Positions 22,141 through 61,675 of a stretch of DNA of 64,000 bases are shown in pieces. The notes beneath the pieces were generated by a model. The model was given only the letters and a program-made list of their open reading frames with translations. It ran no database searches and was not told the DNA's origin. A program made the translations under genes and the position numbers. The stretch is from an uncultured Candidatus Saccharibacteria bacterium (GTDB lineage Bacteria; Patescibacteriota; Minisyncoccia; UBA6257): contig CAYZJA010000002.1 of assembly GCA_964479005.1 (NCBI GenBank), positions 64,001-128,000 of the forward strand, given 5' to 3'. Positions within the stretch are counted from its first letter, which is position 1; every line of letters starts with the position of its first letter.

Positions 22141-22231
22141 TTGTTCTAAGTATACGTCTATTCTATTATTCTGTCAAGGTGGAAAATAATGATGGCTAAG
22201 GTTATAATCTTAGCCATTAACTAATTAATAG

Positions 22232-22302
22232 TCGGGGAACCGGGACTTGAACCCGGACTAAATCCTCCCAAAGGACTCGTGCTACCATTACACTATCCCC
22301 CG
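22232..22302 (-). tRNA. tRNA-Pro(TGG)
   Basis: Acceptor CGGGGGA/TTCCCCG, loop TTTGGGA, T-arm CCGGG-TTCAAGT-CCCGG. Confidence 0.85.
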
Positions 22303-22317
22303 ATATGTTTTTAACAG

Positions 22318-22391
22318 TGCCCTCGGCAGGACTCGAACCTGCACTCTTGTCCTTAGAAGAGACCTGCTTTATCCAATTAAGCTACGAGGGC
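22318..22391 (-). tRNA. tRNA-Arg(TCT)
   Basis: Acceptor GCCCTCG/CGAGGGC, anticodon loop CTTCTAA, T-arm GCAGG-TTCGAGT-CCTGC. Confidence 0.75.
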
Positions 22392-22534
22392 AATTCTTTT
22401 TGAGCTTATCTTCATTTGAGTTGCAGGGATGTCTGGTTTCTATTTTATCATACTTTTACTTGAAATAAAAGTTTTTTTGATTTATAATAAAGTAAAAGTG
22501 GGGCTTATATTTTAAAGATGAGAATAATGTATAT

Positions 22535-23701
22535 ATGCCCAAAGTAAAATGTAGAGTTTGCAAAAAGATATTCTATATCAAATCCAATTGGCTTAAAAGA
22601 GGATGGGGAAAATATTGTTCGAGGAAATGTCAGTACAAATCCCAATTGAAAGGAAAATTTGTGGTTTGCGCCTATTGCGGTAGAAGGGTATATCGATCAC
22701 TTGCTGAATTGCGCAGAAAATCTAAGGCAGGAGTTTATTTTTGTAATTTATCCTGTCATTGCGCTTGGAAAAATAAACAAAGGAAAAGTAAGGGAAGATT
22801 TAAATTACAAAATTTATGGGGACCGTGGTGTAATAGTAGCACTAGGACCTGTGGCGTCCTCGGTACGGATGCAAATTCCGTCGGTCCCCCATTTTTCTTT
22901 CTAAAATTCTTAAAGCCCAAGAAGAAAAAAAATAATCTTTTATTTCTTAAGCGGCCACCAAAGAAAATTCTTTATCATTTTTATTGGAAAAAGAATTATA
23001 CCCAAACAGAGATAGCTAAAATTTTTAATGCCACCCACACTAGCGTGAAAAGATGGTTTAATTATTATAAAATCATGGTGAAGTACCGAACTCTATCTTG
23101 TGGCCATAATCCCAATATTTTAAGAAATTTAAAATTAGGTCGTACAGATAAAGCTATTAGAAAATCGGCAGAAGCAAGAAGAATTTATTCAAAAGAAAAA
23201 CTTATTGAAAAAATAAAAGAATTTGTACAAAAAGAAGAAAGAATTCCTACAAAGAACGAATTTATTAATAATTCCTCTTATCCAGATTATGTCACTTACA
23301 GGCATTATTTTGGCACTTGGAATAATGCCATCAAGACAGCGGGCTACAAGCCAAATGAACAATGGTTTGCCTCAGGACATTTATTTGCTAAAGATGGGCA
23401 CAAATGTAATTCAATTTCAGAAATAATCATTGACGATTGGTTTTTTGAAAATGATATTTCTCATACGAGAGAGTGTTTATACCCAGAAGGACGATATCGC
23501 TGTGATTTTATGGTTGGCAATACTTTTATTGAATTTTTTGGTTTATTTAATGCTTCCATTGTTAACCCAAGTTATATTGAAATCGTTAAAAGAAAAAAAG
23601 AAATATGTAAGAAATTTAATATTGTCCTCATTGAACTCTATGAGAAGGATCTTTATAAATTAGATCAATCCTTGGGAGCAAAGATTGGATTAAAAGTATA
23701 A
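22535..23701 (+). CDS. composite ORF: 2x zinc-ribbon N-terminus, HTH, 'YRHYFGTWNNAIKTAG' motif and a DUF559/Vsr-like PD-(D/E)xK endonuclease-like C-terminus; contains a tRNA-His-like sequence in-frame
   Basis: N-terminal 'CRVCKK..YCSRKC' and 'CAYCGR..CNLSCHC'. HTH 'YTQTEIAKIFNATHTSVKRW'. C-terminal 'SEIII..RYRCDFMV..IEFFG..KKFNIVLIEL' resembles DUF559. A 388-codon open frame is unusual in AT-rich DNA, but codons 95-119 coincide with a GC-rich tRNA-like cloverleaf, so the true start or boundaries are uncertain. Confidence 0.4.
   Translation: MPKVKCRVCKKIFYIKSNWLKRGWGKYCSRKCQYKSQLKGKFVVCAYCGRRVYRSLAELRRKSKAGVYFCNLSCHCAWKNKQRKSKGRFKLQNLWGPWCNSSTRTCGVLGTDANSVGPPFFFLKFLKPKKKKNNLLFLKRPPKKILYHFYWKKNYTQTEIAKIFNATHTSVKRWFNYYKIMVKYRTLSCGHNPNILRNLKLGRTDKAIRKSAEARRIYSKEKLIEKIKEFVQKEERIPTKNEFINNSSYPDYVTYRHYFGTWNNAIKTAGYKPNEQWFASGHLFAKDGHKCNSISEIIIDDWFFENDISHTRECLYPEGRYRCDFMVGNTFIEFFGLFNASIVNPSYIEIVKRKKEICKKFNIVLIELYEKDLYKLDQSLGAKIGLKV
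22818..22889 (+). tRNA. tRNA-His(GTG)-like cloverleaf with non-canonical D- and T-loops
   Basis: G-1:C73 and acceptor GGGACCG/CGGTCCC. Anticodon stem AGGAC/GTCCT with loop CTGTGGC. T-stem ACGGA/TCCGT with loop TGCAAAT (no TTC). D-loop AATAGTA (no GG). Confidence 0.5.
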
Positions 23702-23791
23702 AAGGCGATAGAGGATTGACCCGCACACCATAACGAATACTAAGTGCCTTTGGCGCTAAGATACGAAGTATGTGCTCGTTTGGTATCAGGG

Positions 23792-23819
23792 TTGACAAAT
23801 TATTTTTCTTTGTTATAAT
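23792..23819 (+). promoter_or_regulatory. consensus promoter TTGACA-N16-TATAAT
   Basis: 'cagggTTGACAaattatttttctttgtTATAATggg'. Confidence 0.55.
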
Positions 23820-23822
23820 GGG

Positions 23823-23888
23823 AATGCTATCGTTTAGAGATATTAAATAGCTTGCTATCTAATTTCAAAAAGCGATAGCATTTTTTTT
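23823..23888 (+). ncRNA. ~60-nt structured transcript (long hairpin with inner stem) ending in T8; sRNA or transcription attenuator candidate
   Basis: 'aatgctatcg...agata..tatct...cgatagcat' followed by tttttttt; begins ~5 nt after the -10 of the consensus promoter. Confidence 0.45.
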
Positions 23889-23957: not shown

Positions 23958-24266
23958 ATGAAAATAGATTGGAACAAAAAAATCGGAATGCAGGAAGAAA
24001 ATTACGGTTTAACGGTATTTGTTGGAGGGTTAATGCAAATAGTTTTTGGATTTAGTTTTGGTTTAATTCCTTTAGCCATTTTTATTATTACAGTAATCGC
24101 TTTTGTTTTAAGTTTGAAACATGACAGATACGAACCTTTTAGAAGAAGAATGAGTTTTATCGGTTTAGGCATTGTGATTACAATGGTTTTACTTTATTTT
24201 GTTTTTGGCTGGGTAGGAATTATTGGGACATTAGTAATGCCAAAATATGTTTCAATGTTAAGGTAA
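23958..24266 (+). CDS. small membrane protein (3 TM)
   Basis: Hydrophobic segments; a terminator hairpin follows at 24280-24310. Confidence 0.45.
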   Translation: MKIDWNKKIGMQEENYGLTVFVGGLMQIVFGFSFGLIPLAIFIITVIAFVLSLKHDRYEPFRRRMSFIGLGIVITMVLLYFVFGWVGIIGTLVMPKYVSMLR

Positions 24267-57856: not shown

Positions 57857-57931
57857 GCGCACGTAGCTCAGTGGTAGAGCGCCGCCCTTATAAGACGGTG
57901 GTCGCAGGTTCGATCCCTGCCGTGCGCACCA
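57857..57931 (+). tRNA. tRNA with anticodon TAT (Ile2-type, UAU), CCA encoded
   Basis: Acceptor GCGCACG/CGTGCGC, stem CCGCC/GACGG (one C-A mismatch), loop CTTATAA, T-arm GCAGG-TTCGATC-CCTGC. Confidence 0.65.
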
Positions 57932-60584: not shown

Positions 60585-60667
60585 GCGCGGGTGGTGGAAT
60601 GGTAGACACGCATCTTCGAGGGGGATGTGTCCGCAAGGACGTGGAGGTTCGAGTCCTCTCCCGCGCA
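60585..60667 (+). tRNA. class II tRNA, most likely tRNA-Leu (anticodon GAG as parsed; CGA not excluded)
   Basis: Architecture parallels E. coli tRNA-Leu: GCGCGGG-TG-GTG-GAATGGTAGA-CAC, stem CATCT/GGATG, loop TCGAGGG, variable arm TGTCCGCAAGGACG, T-arm GGAGG-TTCGAGT-CCTCT. Confidence 0.6.
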
Positions 60668-60676
60668 CATAAAAAT

Positions 60677-61675
60677 ATGTTTTTTTCAGAATCTAATCAG
60701 ACTATTAAAGCGGTAAAAACAGCTACACCTTCAGTGGTAGCTGTTTTAATGTCTAAAGAATTGTCAAAAATTAAAAAAGATATAGGAGCAGATACAGCAA
60801 GATATTTAGTTGATGAAAAAGGTATGGTTAAAATTGGCGGATGTTCAGGTTTTTTTGTTTCCTCTAATGGCTATATTTTAACAAATCGTCATATAGTCGA
60901 AGATGAAGAAGCTTCTTATACTGTAGTTTGGCAAAACAAAATTTATTCATGCCAGATTTTGGTTAGAGATAAAATAACTGATATTGCTGTGTTGAAAATT
61001 GATGGCAATAATTTTCCTTATCTGAAATTTGCCAATTCTTCAGAATTAAAATTAGGGCAGACTGTTATGGCTATTGGCAATGCCTTAGGTGAATTTCAAA
61101 ATACTGTTTCCCGTGGGATTATTTCAGGGCTTTCACGAGACATAAAAACAGAAATTGGAGAAGATATTCAAGAATTTTTTGGTTTGATTCAAACAGACGC
61201 GGCCATTAATCCTGGAAATTCTGGCGGGCCTTTAATCAATCTTTCAGGAAAAGTTATAGGCATTTGCACAGCAGTGGTTTTAGGTGTGGAAAATATTGGT
61301 TTTGCTATTCCTGTTAATCAAGCTAAAAGTATTTTGGAGGATGTAAAAAAACATGGGAAGTTATGCCGTCCCAGTTTGGGGGTGAGATATTTTTTGATTG
61401 ATGAAGAGATGCAAAAACTTCATCATTTTTCTTTTGATTATGGCGCTTTTATTATTTATGAGACAATTCCCGGACGAGGTGGAATAGTTTCTGGAGGAGC
61501 AGCAGAAAAGACCGGGTTAAAAGAGGGTGATATTATATTGGAAATTAATAATGAAAAAATAACCAAACAATTTAATTTATCTCGAATTTTAGCGCAATAT
61601 AAAATTGGCGATGTAATTAGAATTATTTATTGGAGTAAACAAGAGAAAAAAGAAATTCAGGTTAAGTTACTCTAA
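60677..61675 (+). CDS. htrA: HtrA/DegP-family serine protease with PDZ domain
   Basis: 'GFFVSSNGYILTNRHIV' (His), 'TDAAINPGNSGGPLIN' (Ser) and a C-terminal PDZ. The supplied ORF start at 60599 overlaps the tRNA; the ATG at 60677 (MFFSESNQ) is preferred. Confidence 0.8.
   Translation: MFFSESNQTIKAVKTATPSVVAVLMSKELSKIKKDIGADTARYLVDEKGMVKIGGCSGFFVSSNGYILTNRHIVEDEEASYTVVWQNKIYSCQILVRDKITDIAVLKIDGNNFPYLKFANSSELKLGQTVMAIGNALGEFQNTVSRGIISGLSRDIKTEIGEDIQEFFGLIQTDAAINPGNSGGPLINLSGKVIGICTAVVLGVENIGFAIPVNQAKSILEDVKKHGKLCRPSLGVRYFLIDEEMQKLHHFSFDYGAFIIYETIPGRGGIVSGGAAEKTGLKEGDIILEINNEKITKQFNLSRILAQYKIGDVIRIIYWSKQEKKEIQVKLL

What the first reader, a model, noticed from the sequence alone, without database searches (positions are those of the whole stretch)
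22818..22889. tRNA-His-like cloverleaf (G-1, GUG) with degenerate D/T loops embedded in-frame in a ZnR-HTH-DUF559-like endonuclease ORF
A 72-nt GC-rich island folds into a tRNA-His cloverleaf: the extra G-1 pairs with C73, there is a 7-bp acceptor, and the anticodon is GUG. Its D-loop lacks G18/G19 and its T-loop is TGCAAAT rather than TTCRANY, unlike every other tRNA in the window. It lies inside an unbroken 388-codon frame (22535-23701), which is unusual in AT-rich DNA. That frame encodes two zinc ribbons upstream of the cloverleaf and, downstream, an HTH, a 'YRHYFGTWNNAIKTAG' motif and a PD-(D/E)xK/DUF559-like domain. Possible explanations: a genuine tRNA-His splitting two genes; a tRNA-like insert or target site inside a homing-endonuclease-like gene within the tRNA island; or an atypical tRNA co-opted into coding sequence.
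Basis: partly seen in the sequence, partly recalled or inferred. Interest (0 to 1): 0.7.

Follow-up and report, generated by a model that had tools for sequence, protein, structure and literature searches.

The report
tRNA-His nested inside homing-endonuclease gene
A working histidine tRNA gene sits in-frame inside the coding sequence of a mobile endonuclease-like gene in a Parcubacteria (CPR) genome; dozens of related lineages keep both the tRNA and the reading frame intact, and I found no bacterial precedent in the literature searched.

Summary
Window 22818-22889 is a tRNA-His (G-1, GUG, C73; ARAGORN; Rfam 53.6 bits). It lies in-frame (codons 95-119) in the unbroken 388-codon ORF 22535-23701.

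- **Conservation.** 31 related loci (18 distinct tRNA sequences) keep the tRNA at the same codon phase.
- **tRNA under selection.** 99.5% of stem positions pair, and 12 of 22 pairs show compensatory changes.
- **Frame under selection.** pN/pS is 0.24-0.39 on both sides of the tRNA. All flank length changes in intact copies are multiples of 3. No conserved start codon follows the tRNA.
- **Peptide.** The tRNA-encoded peptide falls in a predicted disordered linker between two zinc fingers and an HTH / HNH_repeat / nuclease module.
- **Mobility.** Relatives lacking the gene have tRNA-Arg(tct), a 3-21 nt spacer, tRNA-His and a terminator at the same site. Occupied alleles equal this plus one insertion on each side of the tRNA. 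Sister copies lie wholly downstream of tRNA-His, and paralogues abut tRNA-Pro genes. Pseudogenised and recombinant copies exist.

Best reading: a homing-endonuclease-like element has colonised both flanks of the genome's ordinary tRNA-His gene. One transcript is either processed to tRNA or translated through it. That expression mechanism is inferred, not shown.

The parts
22460..22488 (+). Sigma-70-type promoter-like site, TTGAAA-17-TATAAT. It probably drives the ORF and the embedded tRNA in this clade.
   Evidence: 11 of 12 matches. No + strand promoter-like or terminator-like site was found between the ORF start and the tRNA.
22523..22528 (+). AATAAT, a -10-like hexamer 6 nt before the ATG. 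It has the same geometry as the TATAAT-N6-ATG seen in most homologous loci, which suggests a leaderless mRNA.
   Evidence: Function is inferred.
22535..23701 (+). Single 388-codon ORF (stop included) encoding a homing-endonuclease-like protein: zinc fingers, tRNA-encoded linker, HTH, HNH_repeat, Vsr-like nuclease.
22535..22792 (+). N-terminal domain (aa 1-86) with two Cys4-type (FCS/MYM-like) zinc-binding units. It corresponds to 'insertion A', upstream of the tRNA.
   Evidence: The cysteines are invariant or nearly invariant. pLDDT is 82-89. Weak zf-MYM match. pN/pS 0.34. Insertion mapping.
22800..22817 (+). The 18 nt directly 5' of G-1 (TTAAATTACAAAATTTAT), read as codons. It resembles the native tRNA-Arg/tRNA-His intergenic spacer (the tRNA 5' leader) of empty-site relatives.
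   Evidence: the empty-site spacer is TTAAATATGAAATAAGATAT, and L022 has TTAAATCATTAAAAAATTTAT. Synonymous divergence is reduced here.
22818..22889 (+). tRNA-His(GUG) with encoded G-1 and C73, 72 nt = 24 codons' worth, spanning codons 95-119 of the ORF.
22793..22945 (+). Predicted disordered inter-domain linker (aa 87-137). It contains the tRNA-encoded peptide WGPWCNSSTRTCGVLGTDANSVGPP and a Lys-rich tail.
   Evidence: pLDDT < 50 for residues 87-137. For residues 120-145, pN/pS is 0.39 at pS 0.73.
22961..23068 (+). Helix-turn-helix DNA-binding domain (aa 143-178).
23186..23350 (+). Homing-endonuclease-associated repeat (Pfam PF18780, aa 218-272).
   Evidence: 50.6 bits against a cut-off of 26.
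23366..23677 (+). C-terminal Vsr-like / PD-(D/E)xK-fold nuclease domain (aa 278-381). Invariant residues: D287, H289, E296, D300, H310, D324, E333, K354.
22317..22391 (-). tRNA-Arg(tct), the syntenic partner of tRNA-His. It is co-directional and directly upstream in most related loci and in empty sites, but inverted in this clade.

Best explanation
The element is the genome's ordinary, functional tRNA-His gene. A free-standing homing-endonuclease-like gene (HEG-like) has come to occupy both of its flanks. The result is one ORF that runs from the zinc-finger module, through the native about 20-nt tRNA leader and the 72-nt tRNA, into the HTH / HNH_repeat / Vsr-like nuclease module. The tRNA sequence is translated as part of a disordered linker.

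**Shown by comparison:**
1. the tRNA is under tRNA-type selection;
2. the single reading frame across it is under protein-type selection;
3. the gene is a patchy, recombining, sometimes decaying insertion at a conserved tRNA-Arg/tRNA-His site;
4. its relatives sit next to tRNA-His or tRNA-Pro genes.

**Inferred:**
- A single promoter just upstream of the ATG (leaderless in most lineages) makes one transcript with two exclusive fates.
- If RNase P and 3' processing cut out the tRNA, the cell gets tRNA-His and the mRNA is destroyed. The 5' half has no stop codon and the 3' half has no start codon.
- If a ribosome reads through before processing, the full-length endonuclease is made, probably at a low level.
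- The protein most likely cuts HEG-less tRNA-His loci at a tRNA-flank junction that the insertions disrupt, and it spreads by repair-mediated copying.
For: **tRNA function**
- tRNA-His detected by ARAGORN and Rfam.
- across 18 distinct sequences, 99.5% of cells pair, against about 45% when partners are slid. 12 of 22 pairs change on both sides. G-1:C73 and GUG are invariant.
- it sits at the position of the only tRNA-His seen in the HEG-less relatives' loci examined. L124's free-standing tRNA-His differs by 1 nt from L022's embedded one.

**Single translated frame**
- same codon phase in all 31 loci.
- distances measured from frame-independent anchors are 49/55/58/67 nt upstream (all = 1 mod 3). 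Downstream they are 23/50/56/59/62/68 nt (all = 2 mod 3). The one exception is a copy degraded elsewhere as well.
- pN/pS is 0.34 (zinc fingers), 0.39 (linker after the tRNA) and 0.24-0.26 (HTH to nuclease).
- no conserved in-frame start codon between the tRNA and the HTH.
- the tRNA-encoded peptide lies in a segment with pLDDT < 50.

**HEG nature**
- PF18780.
- best fold match is I-Bth0305I, then Vsr and TnsA.
- 4 of 4 sampled neighbours with the same HtrA-like flank lack the gene. They have tRNA-Arg(tct), a 3-21 nt spacer, tRNA-His and a terminator.
- the occupied allele L022 equals the empty allele plus a 377-nt insertion upstream of the native spacer. A second insertion of about 858 nt lies between the tRNA and the native terminator.
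- sister copies lie wholly downstream of tRNA-His.
- paralogues abut tRNA-Pro(ggg/cgg).
- frameshifted, stop-containing or deleted copies (L007/L045, L023, L036, L044) keep an intact tRNA.
- mosaic P0038.
- distant relatives on viral contigs.

**One transcript**
- a promoter upstream of the ATG, and none found between the ATG and the tRNA.
- a TATAAT-like box 6 nt before the ATG in most lineages.
- the native terminator now follows the ORF stop.

**Not an assembly artefact**
- the identical ORF was assembled in five independent sequencing runs.
Against: - There are no expression data. Neither mature tRNA-His from this locus nor a peptide spanning residues 95-119 has been observed.
- A folded tRNA inside an mRNA should be an RNase P / 3'-processing substrate, so the yield of full-length protein could be very low.
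- Endonuclease activity, its target and homing are all untested. The EDxHD catalytic residues were not mapped onto this sequence, and there is no sequence-level match to any nuclease family.
- Only 64 kb of the genome could be scanned, so a second tRNA-His elsewhere is not excluded.
- How an endonuclease gene came to straddle the tRNA is unresolved. Neighbour-joining trees do not polarise the embedded and downstream forms, and recombination blurs them.
- L037's embedded tRNA has a very odd T-loop. Neither ARAGORN nor Rfam called it at the thresholds used.
Confidence: 0.7

Rival explanations
1. There are two independent genes, a small zinc-finger protein and a nuclease protein, separated by a tRNA. 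The unbroken frame across the tRNA is chance or a gene-calling artefact.
For: Two of the three frames of the tRNA sequence are stop-free (read). Open frames can extend by chance through a tRNA, as at tRNA-Leu(gag).
Against: There is no stop between the zinc fingers and the tRNA in any of 18 distinct sequences. No conserved start codon follows the tRNA. At least 8 flank length changes are all multiples of 3 in intact copies. The linker after the tRNA shows pN/pS 0.39 at pS 0.73. tRNA-less sister genes encode the same zinc-finger, linker and HTH-nuclease modules as one continuous protein. The loci were found with C-terminal peptide patterns, so they were not selected for frame continuity.
Confidence: 0.03
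2. The cloverleaf is a pseudo-tRNA or tRNA-like relic that now serves only as coding sequence or as an mRNA structure. The real tRNA-His is elsewhere.
For: The elbow is non-canonical (A18, G55). It is the lowest-scoring tRNA in the window and the default whole-window Rfam run does not list it. ARAGORN misses the homologous tRNA in 5 loci (L007, L020, L021, L037, L045). Some lineages have C54/C58 or G54/G58 T-loops.
Against: Compensatory changes occur in the acceptor, anticodon and T stems, with 99.5% pairing. G-1, C73 and GUG are invariant. The same A18/G55 tRNA-His stands alone at the orthologous site of a HEG-less relative, next to tRNA-Arg(tct) and with its own terminator. No other tRNA-His is present in the window or in any fetched locus. 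The tRNA stays intact where the ORF decays.
Confidence: 0.03
3. The protein is not a selfish homing endonuclease but a host factor tied to tRNA genes. It could be a regulator or nuclease acting on tRNA-His/tRNA-Pro loci or transcripts, since Vsr-like RAP/FASTK domains act on RNA. On this view the nesting couples its synthesis to tRNA-His transcription.
Against: The gene is absent from 4 of 4 sampled close relatives that share the flanking genes. There are about 80 protein clusters, against more than 7,700 for the neighbouring HtrA-like gene. Pseudogenised copies exist, as do mosaic recombinants. The best fold match is a bona fide homing endonuclease. The domain make-up (HTH + PF18780 + nuclease) is typical of modular homing endonucleases.
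Confidence: 0.1
4. The tRNA behaves like an excisable insert. It is cut out at G-1 and C73 (exactly 72 nt, 24 codons) and the mRNA halves are rejoined. Alternatively, the downstream half is translated by non-canonical initiation. Either way the tRNA sequence itself is never translated.
For: The excised piece is a multiple of 3. tRNA-less sister proteins have a shorter linker that lacks exactly this region.
Against: No RNA-ligation pathway of this kind is known for bacterial mRNAs (own knowledge). The frame constraint applies equally to plain read-through. No candidate start codon is conserved. Nothing in the data requires this reading.
Confidence: 0.05

Closest known systems
EDxHD / Vsr-like homing endonucleases (prototype I-Bth0305I, PDB 3R3P; PMC3239194)
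   Different: There is no detectable sequence match. The composite EDxHD residues have not been mapped. I-Bth0305I sits in a group I intron in a phage recA gene. Here the gene is free-standing, chromosomal and in CPR bacteria, carries zinc fingers and a PF18780 repeat, and its ORF contains the adjacent host gene (a tRNA).
Free-standing homing endonuclease genes in tRNA gene clusters (phage T4 SegB; PMC2330249)
   Same: An endonuclease gene is lodged between tRNA genes. It shows presence/absence polymorphism among relatives and is inherited together with flanking tRNA genes.
   Different: SegB is a GIY-YIG enzyme in a phage and occupies an intergenic slot. No tRNA lies within its reading frame.
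Intron-encoded homing endonucleases in tRNA genes (I-Ssp6803I in a tRNA-fMet intron, own knowledge; group I introns in Patescibacteria tRNA genes, PMC13011429)
   Same: A tRNA gene and an endonuclease gene are physically interleaved, and RNA processing is required to obtain the tRNA.
   Different: The topology is inverted. There the endonuclease ORF sits inside the tRNA gene and a ribozyme removes it. Here the tRNA sits inside the endonuclease ORF, there is no intron, and maturing the tRNA would destroy the mRNA.
Mixed tRNA-mRNA transcripts (E. coli thrU-tyrU-glyT-thrT-tufB and secG-leuU operons) and the mitochondrial tRNA punctuation model, including mitochondrial tRNA/protein gene overlaps such as Armadillidium vulgare (all own knowledge)
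   Same: tRNAs and protein-coding RNA are made from one transcript and separated by RNase P and 3' processing. In some mitochondria, tRNA genes overlap coding sequence.
   Different: In those bacterial operons the tRNAs lie outside the ORFs. The mitochondrial overlaps are mostly partial, terminal overlaps between different genes. Here a complete tRNA lies in the middle of one bacterial ORF, in-frame, with selection on both.

Membership tests
Bacterial tRNA-His | Cloverleaf with four helices maintained by compensatory change | tested here: met
   22 pairs, 99.5% of cells paired, 12 pairs with changes on both sides, slid controls 43-54%. Rfam scores 53.6 bits.
Bacterial tRNA-His | GUG anticodon, genome-encoded G-1 pairing with C73 | tested here: met
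   All are invariant in 18 distinct sequences: G-1:C73 is GC in 18 of 18, and columns 34-36 are GTG.
Bacterial tRNA-His | Canonical elbow (G18 G19 / U54 U55 C56 ... A58) | tested here: not met
   A18 and G55 occur in 17 of 18 sequences, while G19 and C56 are kept. L003 has G18 with U55, so positions 18 and 55 change together. Some lineages have C54/C58 or G54/G58. The same A18/G55 form occurs as a free-standing tRNA-His (L124).
Bacterial tRNA-His | Expressed, processed and histidylated | not testable with these tools
   Needs tRNA-seq or a northern blot, plus an aminoacylation assay.
EDxHD / Vsr-like homing endonucleases | Vsr-like nuclease fold | tested here: met
EDxHD / Vsr-like homing endonucleases | Composite catalytic motif E, D, H, D (PMC3239194) | tested here: inconclusive
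   Invariant acidic and His residues exist (D287, H289, E296, D300, H310, D324, E333). Residue-by-residue superposition on 3R3P/Vsr was not available. No sequence-level hit to the family.
EDxHD / Vsr-like homing endonucleases | Site-specific DNA cleavage next to the insertion site, and homing | not testable with these tools
   Only indirect signs: empty and occupied alleles at one site, decaying copies, mosaic copies.
DUF559 (Pfam) | Match to the Pfam DUF559 profile | tested here: not met
PF18780 HNH_repeat (homing-endonuclease-associated repeat) | Match above Pfam's gathering score | tested here: met
   50.6 bits against 26, residues 218-272.
Free-standing homing endonuclease gene (operational definition) | Not inside an intron or intein; patchy presence at a conserved site among close relatives; degenerate copies | tested here: met
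   Empty sites L121-L124. Insertion mapping. Pseudogenes L007/L045, L023, L036, L044. No intron or ribozyme match in the region.

The most novel reading that the evidence does not exclude
The nesting is adaptive for the selfish gene rather than a tolerated accident. By wrapping its ORF around the cell's sole tRNA-His gene and supplying that gene's promoter, the endonuclease gene does three things. It makes its own deletion risky. It borrows an essential gene's transcription. It uses tRNA processing (RNase P and 3' maturation competing with the ribosome) as a built-in switch that holds endonuclease synthesis to a trickle. This would be a new mode of gene overlap and post-transcriptional control in bacteria: the inverse of an intron-encoded homing endonuclease, with the host gene inside the parasite. 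The unusual, fast-evolving elbow of this tRNA (A18/G55, C54/C58) could tune how fast RNase P wins that competition.
Probability: 0.3. Interest if true: 0.9.

Novelty: new variant of a known kind. Interest (0 to 1): 0.8.

Why it matters
- **Dual use of one stretch of DNA.** The same 72 nucleotides appear to be selected both as an essential tRNA and as codons of a protein, on the same strand, over a divergence of 50-90% protein identity. I found no bacterial precedent in the literature searched.
- **A natural test system.** It could show how ribosomes and tRNA-processing enzymes compete for one transcript.
- **A third topology for endonuclease/host-gene association.** Known arrangements put the endonuclease gene inside the host gene or beside it. 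Here it sits around the host gene.
- **A pattern in CPR genomes.** It points to tRNA clusters of Parcubacteria as landing sites for a whole family of endonuclease genes, specific to tRNA-His or tRNA-Pro flanks.
- **Annotation.** Gene callers annotate the ORF as a hypothetical protein, and tRNA finders can miss this tRNA. ARAGORN missed it in 5 related loci, and the default whole-window Rfam run did not list it. Such genomes could wrongly appear to lack tRNA-His.

Tried and rejected
- **Coding constraint on the odd loops.** I asked whether A18/G55 is forced by stop-codon avoidance. It is not: canonical G18/U55 would also be stop-free in this frame, and L003 has them.
- **Self-immunity mutation.** I asked whether A18/G55 protects against the endonuclease. 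This is weakened, because the HEG-less L124 carries the same tRNA.
- **Separate start for the C-terminal half.** There is no conserved ATG/GTG/TTG.
- **Internal promoter or terminator next to the tRNA.** None was found by the consensus scan. Divergent CPR promoters cannot be excluded.
- **Remnant tRNA in tRNA-less sister genes.** There is no DNA similarity, only a clean gap.
- **Second example in the window.** tRNA-Leu(gag) in a 366-codon open frame turned out to be a chance upstream extension of an HtrA-like gene.
- **Embedded tRNA-Pro in paralogues.** The tRNA is outside the real ORF in every case inspected.
- **Polarity of embedded versus downstream forms.** A neighbour-joining tree was uninformative. 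tRNA-less forms scatter across it, apparently because of recombination.
- **Family libraries.** PHROGs and NCBIfam gave nothing beyond the PF18780-like region and weak HTH hits.
- **Sequence profile against PDB.** It found only the HTH and a zinc finger.
- **Literature.** Searches for a bacterial tRNA inside an ORF returned nothing relevant.
- **Not possible.**
  - Scanning the rest of the 551-kb contig for another tRNA-His.
Full report
**1.

- ARAGORN finds tRNA-His(gtg) at 22819-22890. Rfam's tRNA model scores 22819-22889 at 53.6 bits against a gathering score of 29.
- Reading the sequence: G-1 is 22818. The 7-bp acceptor stem is 22819-25 with 22882-88. C73 is 22889. The anticodon is GUG.
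- The D-loop is AAUAGUA (A18, G19) and the T-loop is UGCAAAU (G55).
- All 18 other tRNAs of the window have GG and TTCRA.
- The 388-codon ORF 22535-23701 is unbroken. The tRNA occupies codons 95-119, and G-1 is the second base of codon 95.
- CCA is not encoded. This is also true of several other tRNAs in the window.

**2. The arrangement is conserved, not a local accident**

- A protein search returned 82 clusters. About 40 are full-length at 52-87% identity, all from Parcubacteria/Patescibacteria metagenomes.
- In the alignment, most carry the peptide 'W(G/R)(S/P)WCNSS...CG...(D/G)A(N/H)(S/P)..(P/L)P'. This is the translated tRNA.
- I fetched DNA with patterns taken from the C-terminal domain, so the loci were not selected for continuity across the tRNA.
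- 31 loci carry the tRNA inside the ORF, representing 18 distinct tRNA sequences. G-1 is always at the same codon position.
- The identical ORF was assembled independently in five sequencing runs.

**3. The tRNA is under tRNA-type selection**

- On the 18 distinct sequences, the cloverleaf I wrote down is paired in 99.5% of cells.
- 12 of 22 pairs change on both sides: 4 of 8 acceptor pairs, 5 of 5 anticodon-stem pairs and 3 of 5 T-stem pairs.
- Sliding the partners by 1-3 columns drops pairing to 43-54%.
- G-1:C73 and GUG never vary.
- The elbow oddity is systematic: A18 with G55 in 17 sequences, and G18 with U55 in L003.
- Rfam scores two copies that ARAGORN missed at 44-45 bits. L037's copy, which has a GGCAGAA T-loop, was not reported.

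**4. The reading frame across the tRNA is under protein-type selection**

| Segment (window residues) | pN/pS | Note |
|---|---|---|
| Zinc fingers (1-88) | 0.34 | |
| Linker after the tRNA (120-145) | 0.39 | pS 0.73 |
| HTH (146-185) | 0.26 | |
| Middle (186-280) | 0.24 | |
| Nuclease (281-388) | 0.25 | |
| tRNA segment (95-119) | 0.51 | pS only 0.37, as expected if the RNA constrains silent sites |

These values sum over 15 intact loci.

- Using anchors found in any frame, the distance from the 'AWKN' motif to G-1 is 49, 55, 58 or 67 nt. The distance from C73 to the 'KRPxKK' motif is 23, 50, 56, 59, 62 or 68 nt.
- Every value preserves the frame. The exception is L007 (58 nt downstream), which carries further frameshifts elsewhere.
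- No in-frame ATG/GTG/TTG is conserved between the tRNA and the HTH. The conserved C-terminal 250 residues can therefore only be reached by translating through the tRNA.
- tRNA-less sister genes encode the same modules as one continuous protein with a shorter linker.

**5. What the protein is**

- An AlphaFold model built on 57 homologues has mean pLDDT 76. It gives confident domains at residues 1-86 (two zinc-binding units), 143-178 (HTH), about 205-268 (helical, PF18780) and 278-381 (alpha/beta nuclease).
- Residues 87-137, which include the tRNA-encoded peptide, have pLDDT below 50. The tRNA therefore sits in a disordered linker, where an arbitrary 25-residue peptide should be tolerated.
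- I-Bth0305I defines the Vsr-like 'EDxHD' homing endonuclease family, which has N-terminal modular DNA-binding regions (PMC3239194).
- Sequence libraries give only PF18780 (E = 2.5e-13) and weak HTH and zinc-finger hits. Pfam DUF559 is not matched.

**6. It behaves as a mobile insertion at the tRNA-His locus**

- In most related loci the gene is preceded by a co-directional tRNA-Arg(tct) and followed by a convergent HtrA-like protease gene. In the window's clade the tRNA-Arg/Pro/Ala block is inverted.
- I used the protease to find relatives (more than 7,700 clusters) and read four long contigs.
- All four lack the endonuclease gene. They have tRNA-Arg(tct), a 3-21 nt spacer, tRNA-His, a hairpin terminator and then the protease gene.
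- One of them, L124, has the A18/G55 tRNA-His. It differs by 1 nt from the embedded tRNA of L022.
- Aligning L124 with L022 shows that the occupied allele equals the empty allele plus two insertions:
  - 377 nt (promoter, ATG and zinc fingers) between tRNA-Arg and the native about 20-nt spacer;
  - about 858 nt (linker, HTH, repeat, nuclease and stop) between the tRNA and the native terminator.
- The ORF therefore reads through the native tRNA leader and the tRNA itself.
- Sister genes at 52-57% identity (L038-L042) lie entirely downstream of tRNA-His, 21-114 nt from it.
- More distant paralogues (about 40-45% identity in the repeat and nuclease) almost always abut tRNA-Pro(ggg) or tRNA-Pro(cgg), in either orientation, without nesting.
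- Decayed copies with an intact tRNA exist: frameshifts in L007/L045 and L036, a stop in L023, and deletions in L044.
- P0038 is a mosaic. Its C-terminal half is 87% identical to an embedded-type gene, while its HTH region (76%) and shared linker motif match a tRNA-less type.
- Distant relatives occur on viral contigs.
- Together these are the usual signatures of a free-standing homing endonuclease gene. The closest described analogue by location is T4 segB in the phage tRNA cluster (PMC2330249).

**7. How it probably works (inference)**

- In the window, a near-consensus promoter (TTGAAA-17-TATAAT, 22460-22488) precedes the ATG. The scan finds no + strand promoter or terminator between the ATG and the tRNA.
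- In most other lineages a TATAAT-like box lies exactly 6 nt before the ATG, with a TTTTAC-like -35 element. This suggests a leaderless mRNA that starts at the AUG. The window has AATAAT in that position.
- The native terminator follows the ORF stop.
- So tRNA-His is most simply made from the same transcript as the protein. The zinc-finger codons serve as its about 280-nt 5' leader and the nuclease codons as its 3' trailer.
- Processing at G-1 and C73 would yield the tRNA, a non-stop 5' fragment and a start-less 3' fragment. Only unprocessed transcripts could give the full protein.
- This predicts low endonuclease output tied to an essential, well-transcribed gene.
- By analogy with other homing endonucleases, I infer that the enzyme recognises a tRNA-His flank junction that its own insertions disrupt.
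- None of this has been observed directly.

**8. What remains open**

- **Origin.** Possibilities include relocation of the 'spacer + tRNA' unit into the linker of a downstream-type gene. Another is fusion of complementary remnants of two endonuclease copies that invaded the two flanks. No intermediate was found, and trees do not polarise the states.
- **Elbow.** Why this tRNA-His lineage has an A18/G55 elbow, with still odder T-loops in some embedded copies, is unexplained. Neither the coding frame nor the presence of the endonuclease gene requires it.
- **Second tRNA-His.** Only 64 kb of the genome could be scanned.

**9. Novelty and verdict**

- The endonuclease is a new, sequence-divergent relative of Vsr-like homing endonucleases.
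- The association of such genes with tRNA genes is known.
- A complete, functional tRNA gene nested in-frame inside the ORF, with both maintained by selection across many lineages, was not found in the literature I could search. I know it otherwise only as partial overlaps in some mitochondria (own knowledge).
- I rate it a new variant of a known kind, of high interest. The comparative facts are strong. The expression mechanism is a testable inference.

Noticed in passing
L008, L009, L047-L096 (for example L049 2800-3656, L066 3907-4842): A paralogous family of 250-300 aa proteins carries the same PF18780 repeat and nuclease, preceded by either zinc fingers or an HTH. It almost always sits within tens of nt of a tRNA-Pro(ggg) or tRNA-Pro(cgg) gene, co-directional or divergent. 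This suggests a wider family of endonuclease genes specific to tRNA-gene flanks in CPR bacteria.
   Followed up: partly
L121-L124 (for example L124 6116-6282): These are empty alleles of the site: tRNA-Arg(tct), a 3-21 nt spacer, tRNA-His, a terminator and a convergent HtrA-like gene, with no endonuclease gene. L124's free-standing tRNA-His already has the A18/G55 elbow.
   Followed up: yes
window 60585-60668 and 60599-61675: tRNA-Leu(gag) lies in a 366-codon sense open frame. This is only a chance upstream extension of an HtrA-like protease gene whose real start follows the tRNA. The upstream L19 gene ends with a stop before the tRNA. It served as a negative control for the finding.
   Followed up: yes
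window 23792-23888: A perfect sigma-70 consensus promoter (TTGACA-16-TATAAT with TG) is followed at once by a long-range hairpin, ATGCTATCG (23824-32) with CGATAGCAT (23873-81), and a T-run. This could be a roughly 60-nt small RNA or a leader upstream of the membrane-protein ORF 23958-24266. There is no Rfam match.
   Followed up: no
window 23702-23790: A stretch of about 90 nt right after the ORF stop looks richer in G+C than its surroundings on reading the sequence; composition was not computed. It has no ORF, no terminator and no Rfam match. In some relatives (L002, L018) the ORF runs on a few codons into the equivalent region.
   Followed up: no
window 57857-57931: tRNA-Ile with anticodon TAT (UAU). 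This is uncommon in bacteria, which usually decode AUA with a lysidine-modified CAU tRNA (own knowledge).
   Followed up: no
L007 1125-1196, L020 425-496, L023 2265-2336, L029 528-599, L037 741-812: Some embedded tRNA-His copies have T-loops CGCACAT/CGCGCAT (C54, C58) or GGCAGAA (G54, G58). They thereby lose the near-universal U54-A58 pair. ARAGORN misses several of them, and Rfam did not report L037's copy.
   Followed up: partly
L004 6561-7259, L039 4060-4794, L123 571-1077, L121 1-140: Further small HTH, HNH_3 or faint LAGLIDADG-like genes sit directly beside other tRNA genes in the same clusters (tRNA-Arg(cct), tRNA-Leu(taa), tRNA-Leu(gag)). The tRNA clusters of these genomes may be general landing sites for endonuclease genes.
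   Followed up: no
window 22231-22391 versus L004, L022 and others: In the window's clade (W, L001, L002, L017-L019, L044) the tRNA-Arg(tct)/tRNA-Pro(tgg)/tRNA-Ala(cgc) block lies on the opposite strand to the ORF. In other lineages tRNA-Arg(tct) is co-directional and directly upstream. This implies an inversion next to the element, and the window then uses a different promoter (22460-22488).
   Followed up: partly
window 1-64000 (Rfam run): The default-filter, gathering-threshold Rfam scan of the whole window lists 17 tRNAs. It omits tRNA-His (22819) and tRNA-Leu(gag) (60585), both of which ARAGORN finds. tRNA-His scores 53.6 bits when a 4-kb stretch is scanned. This is a filter effect that could leave such tRNAs unannotated.
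   Followed up: partly
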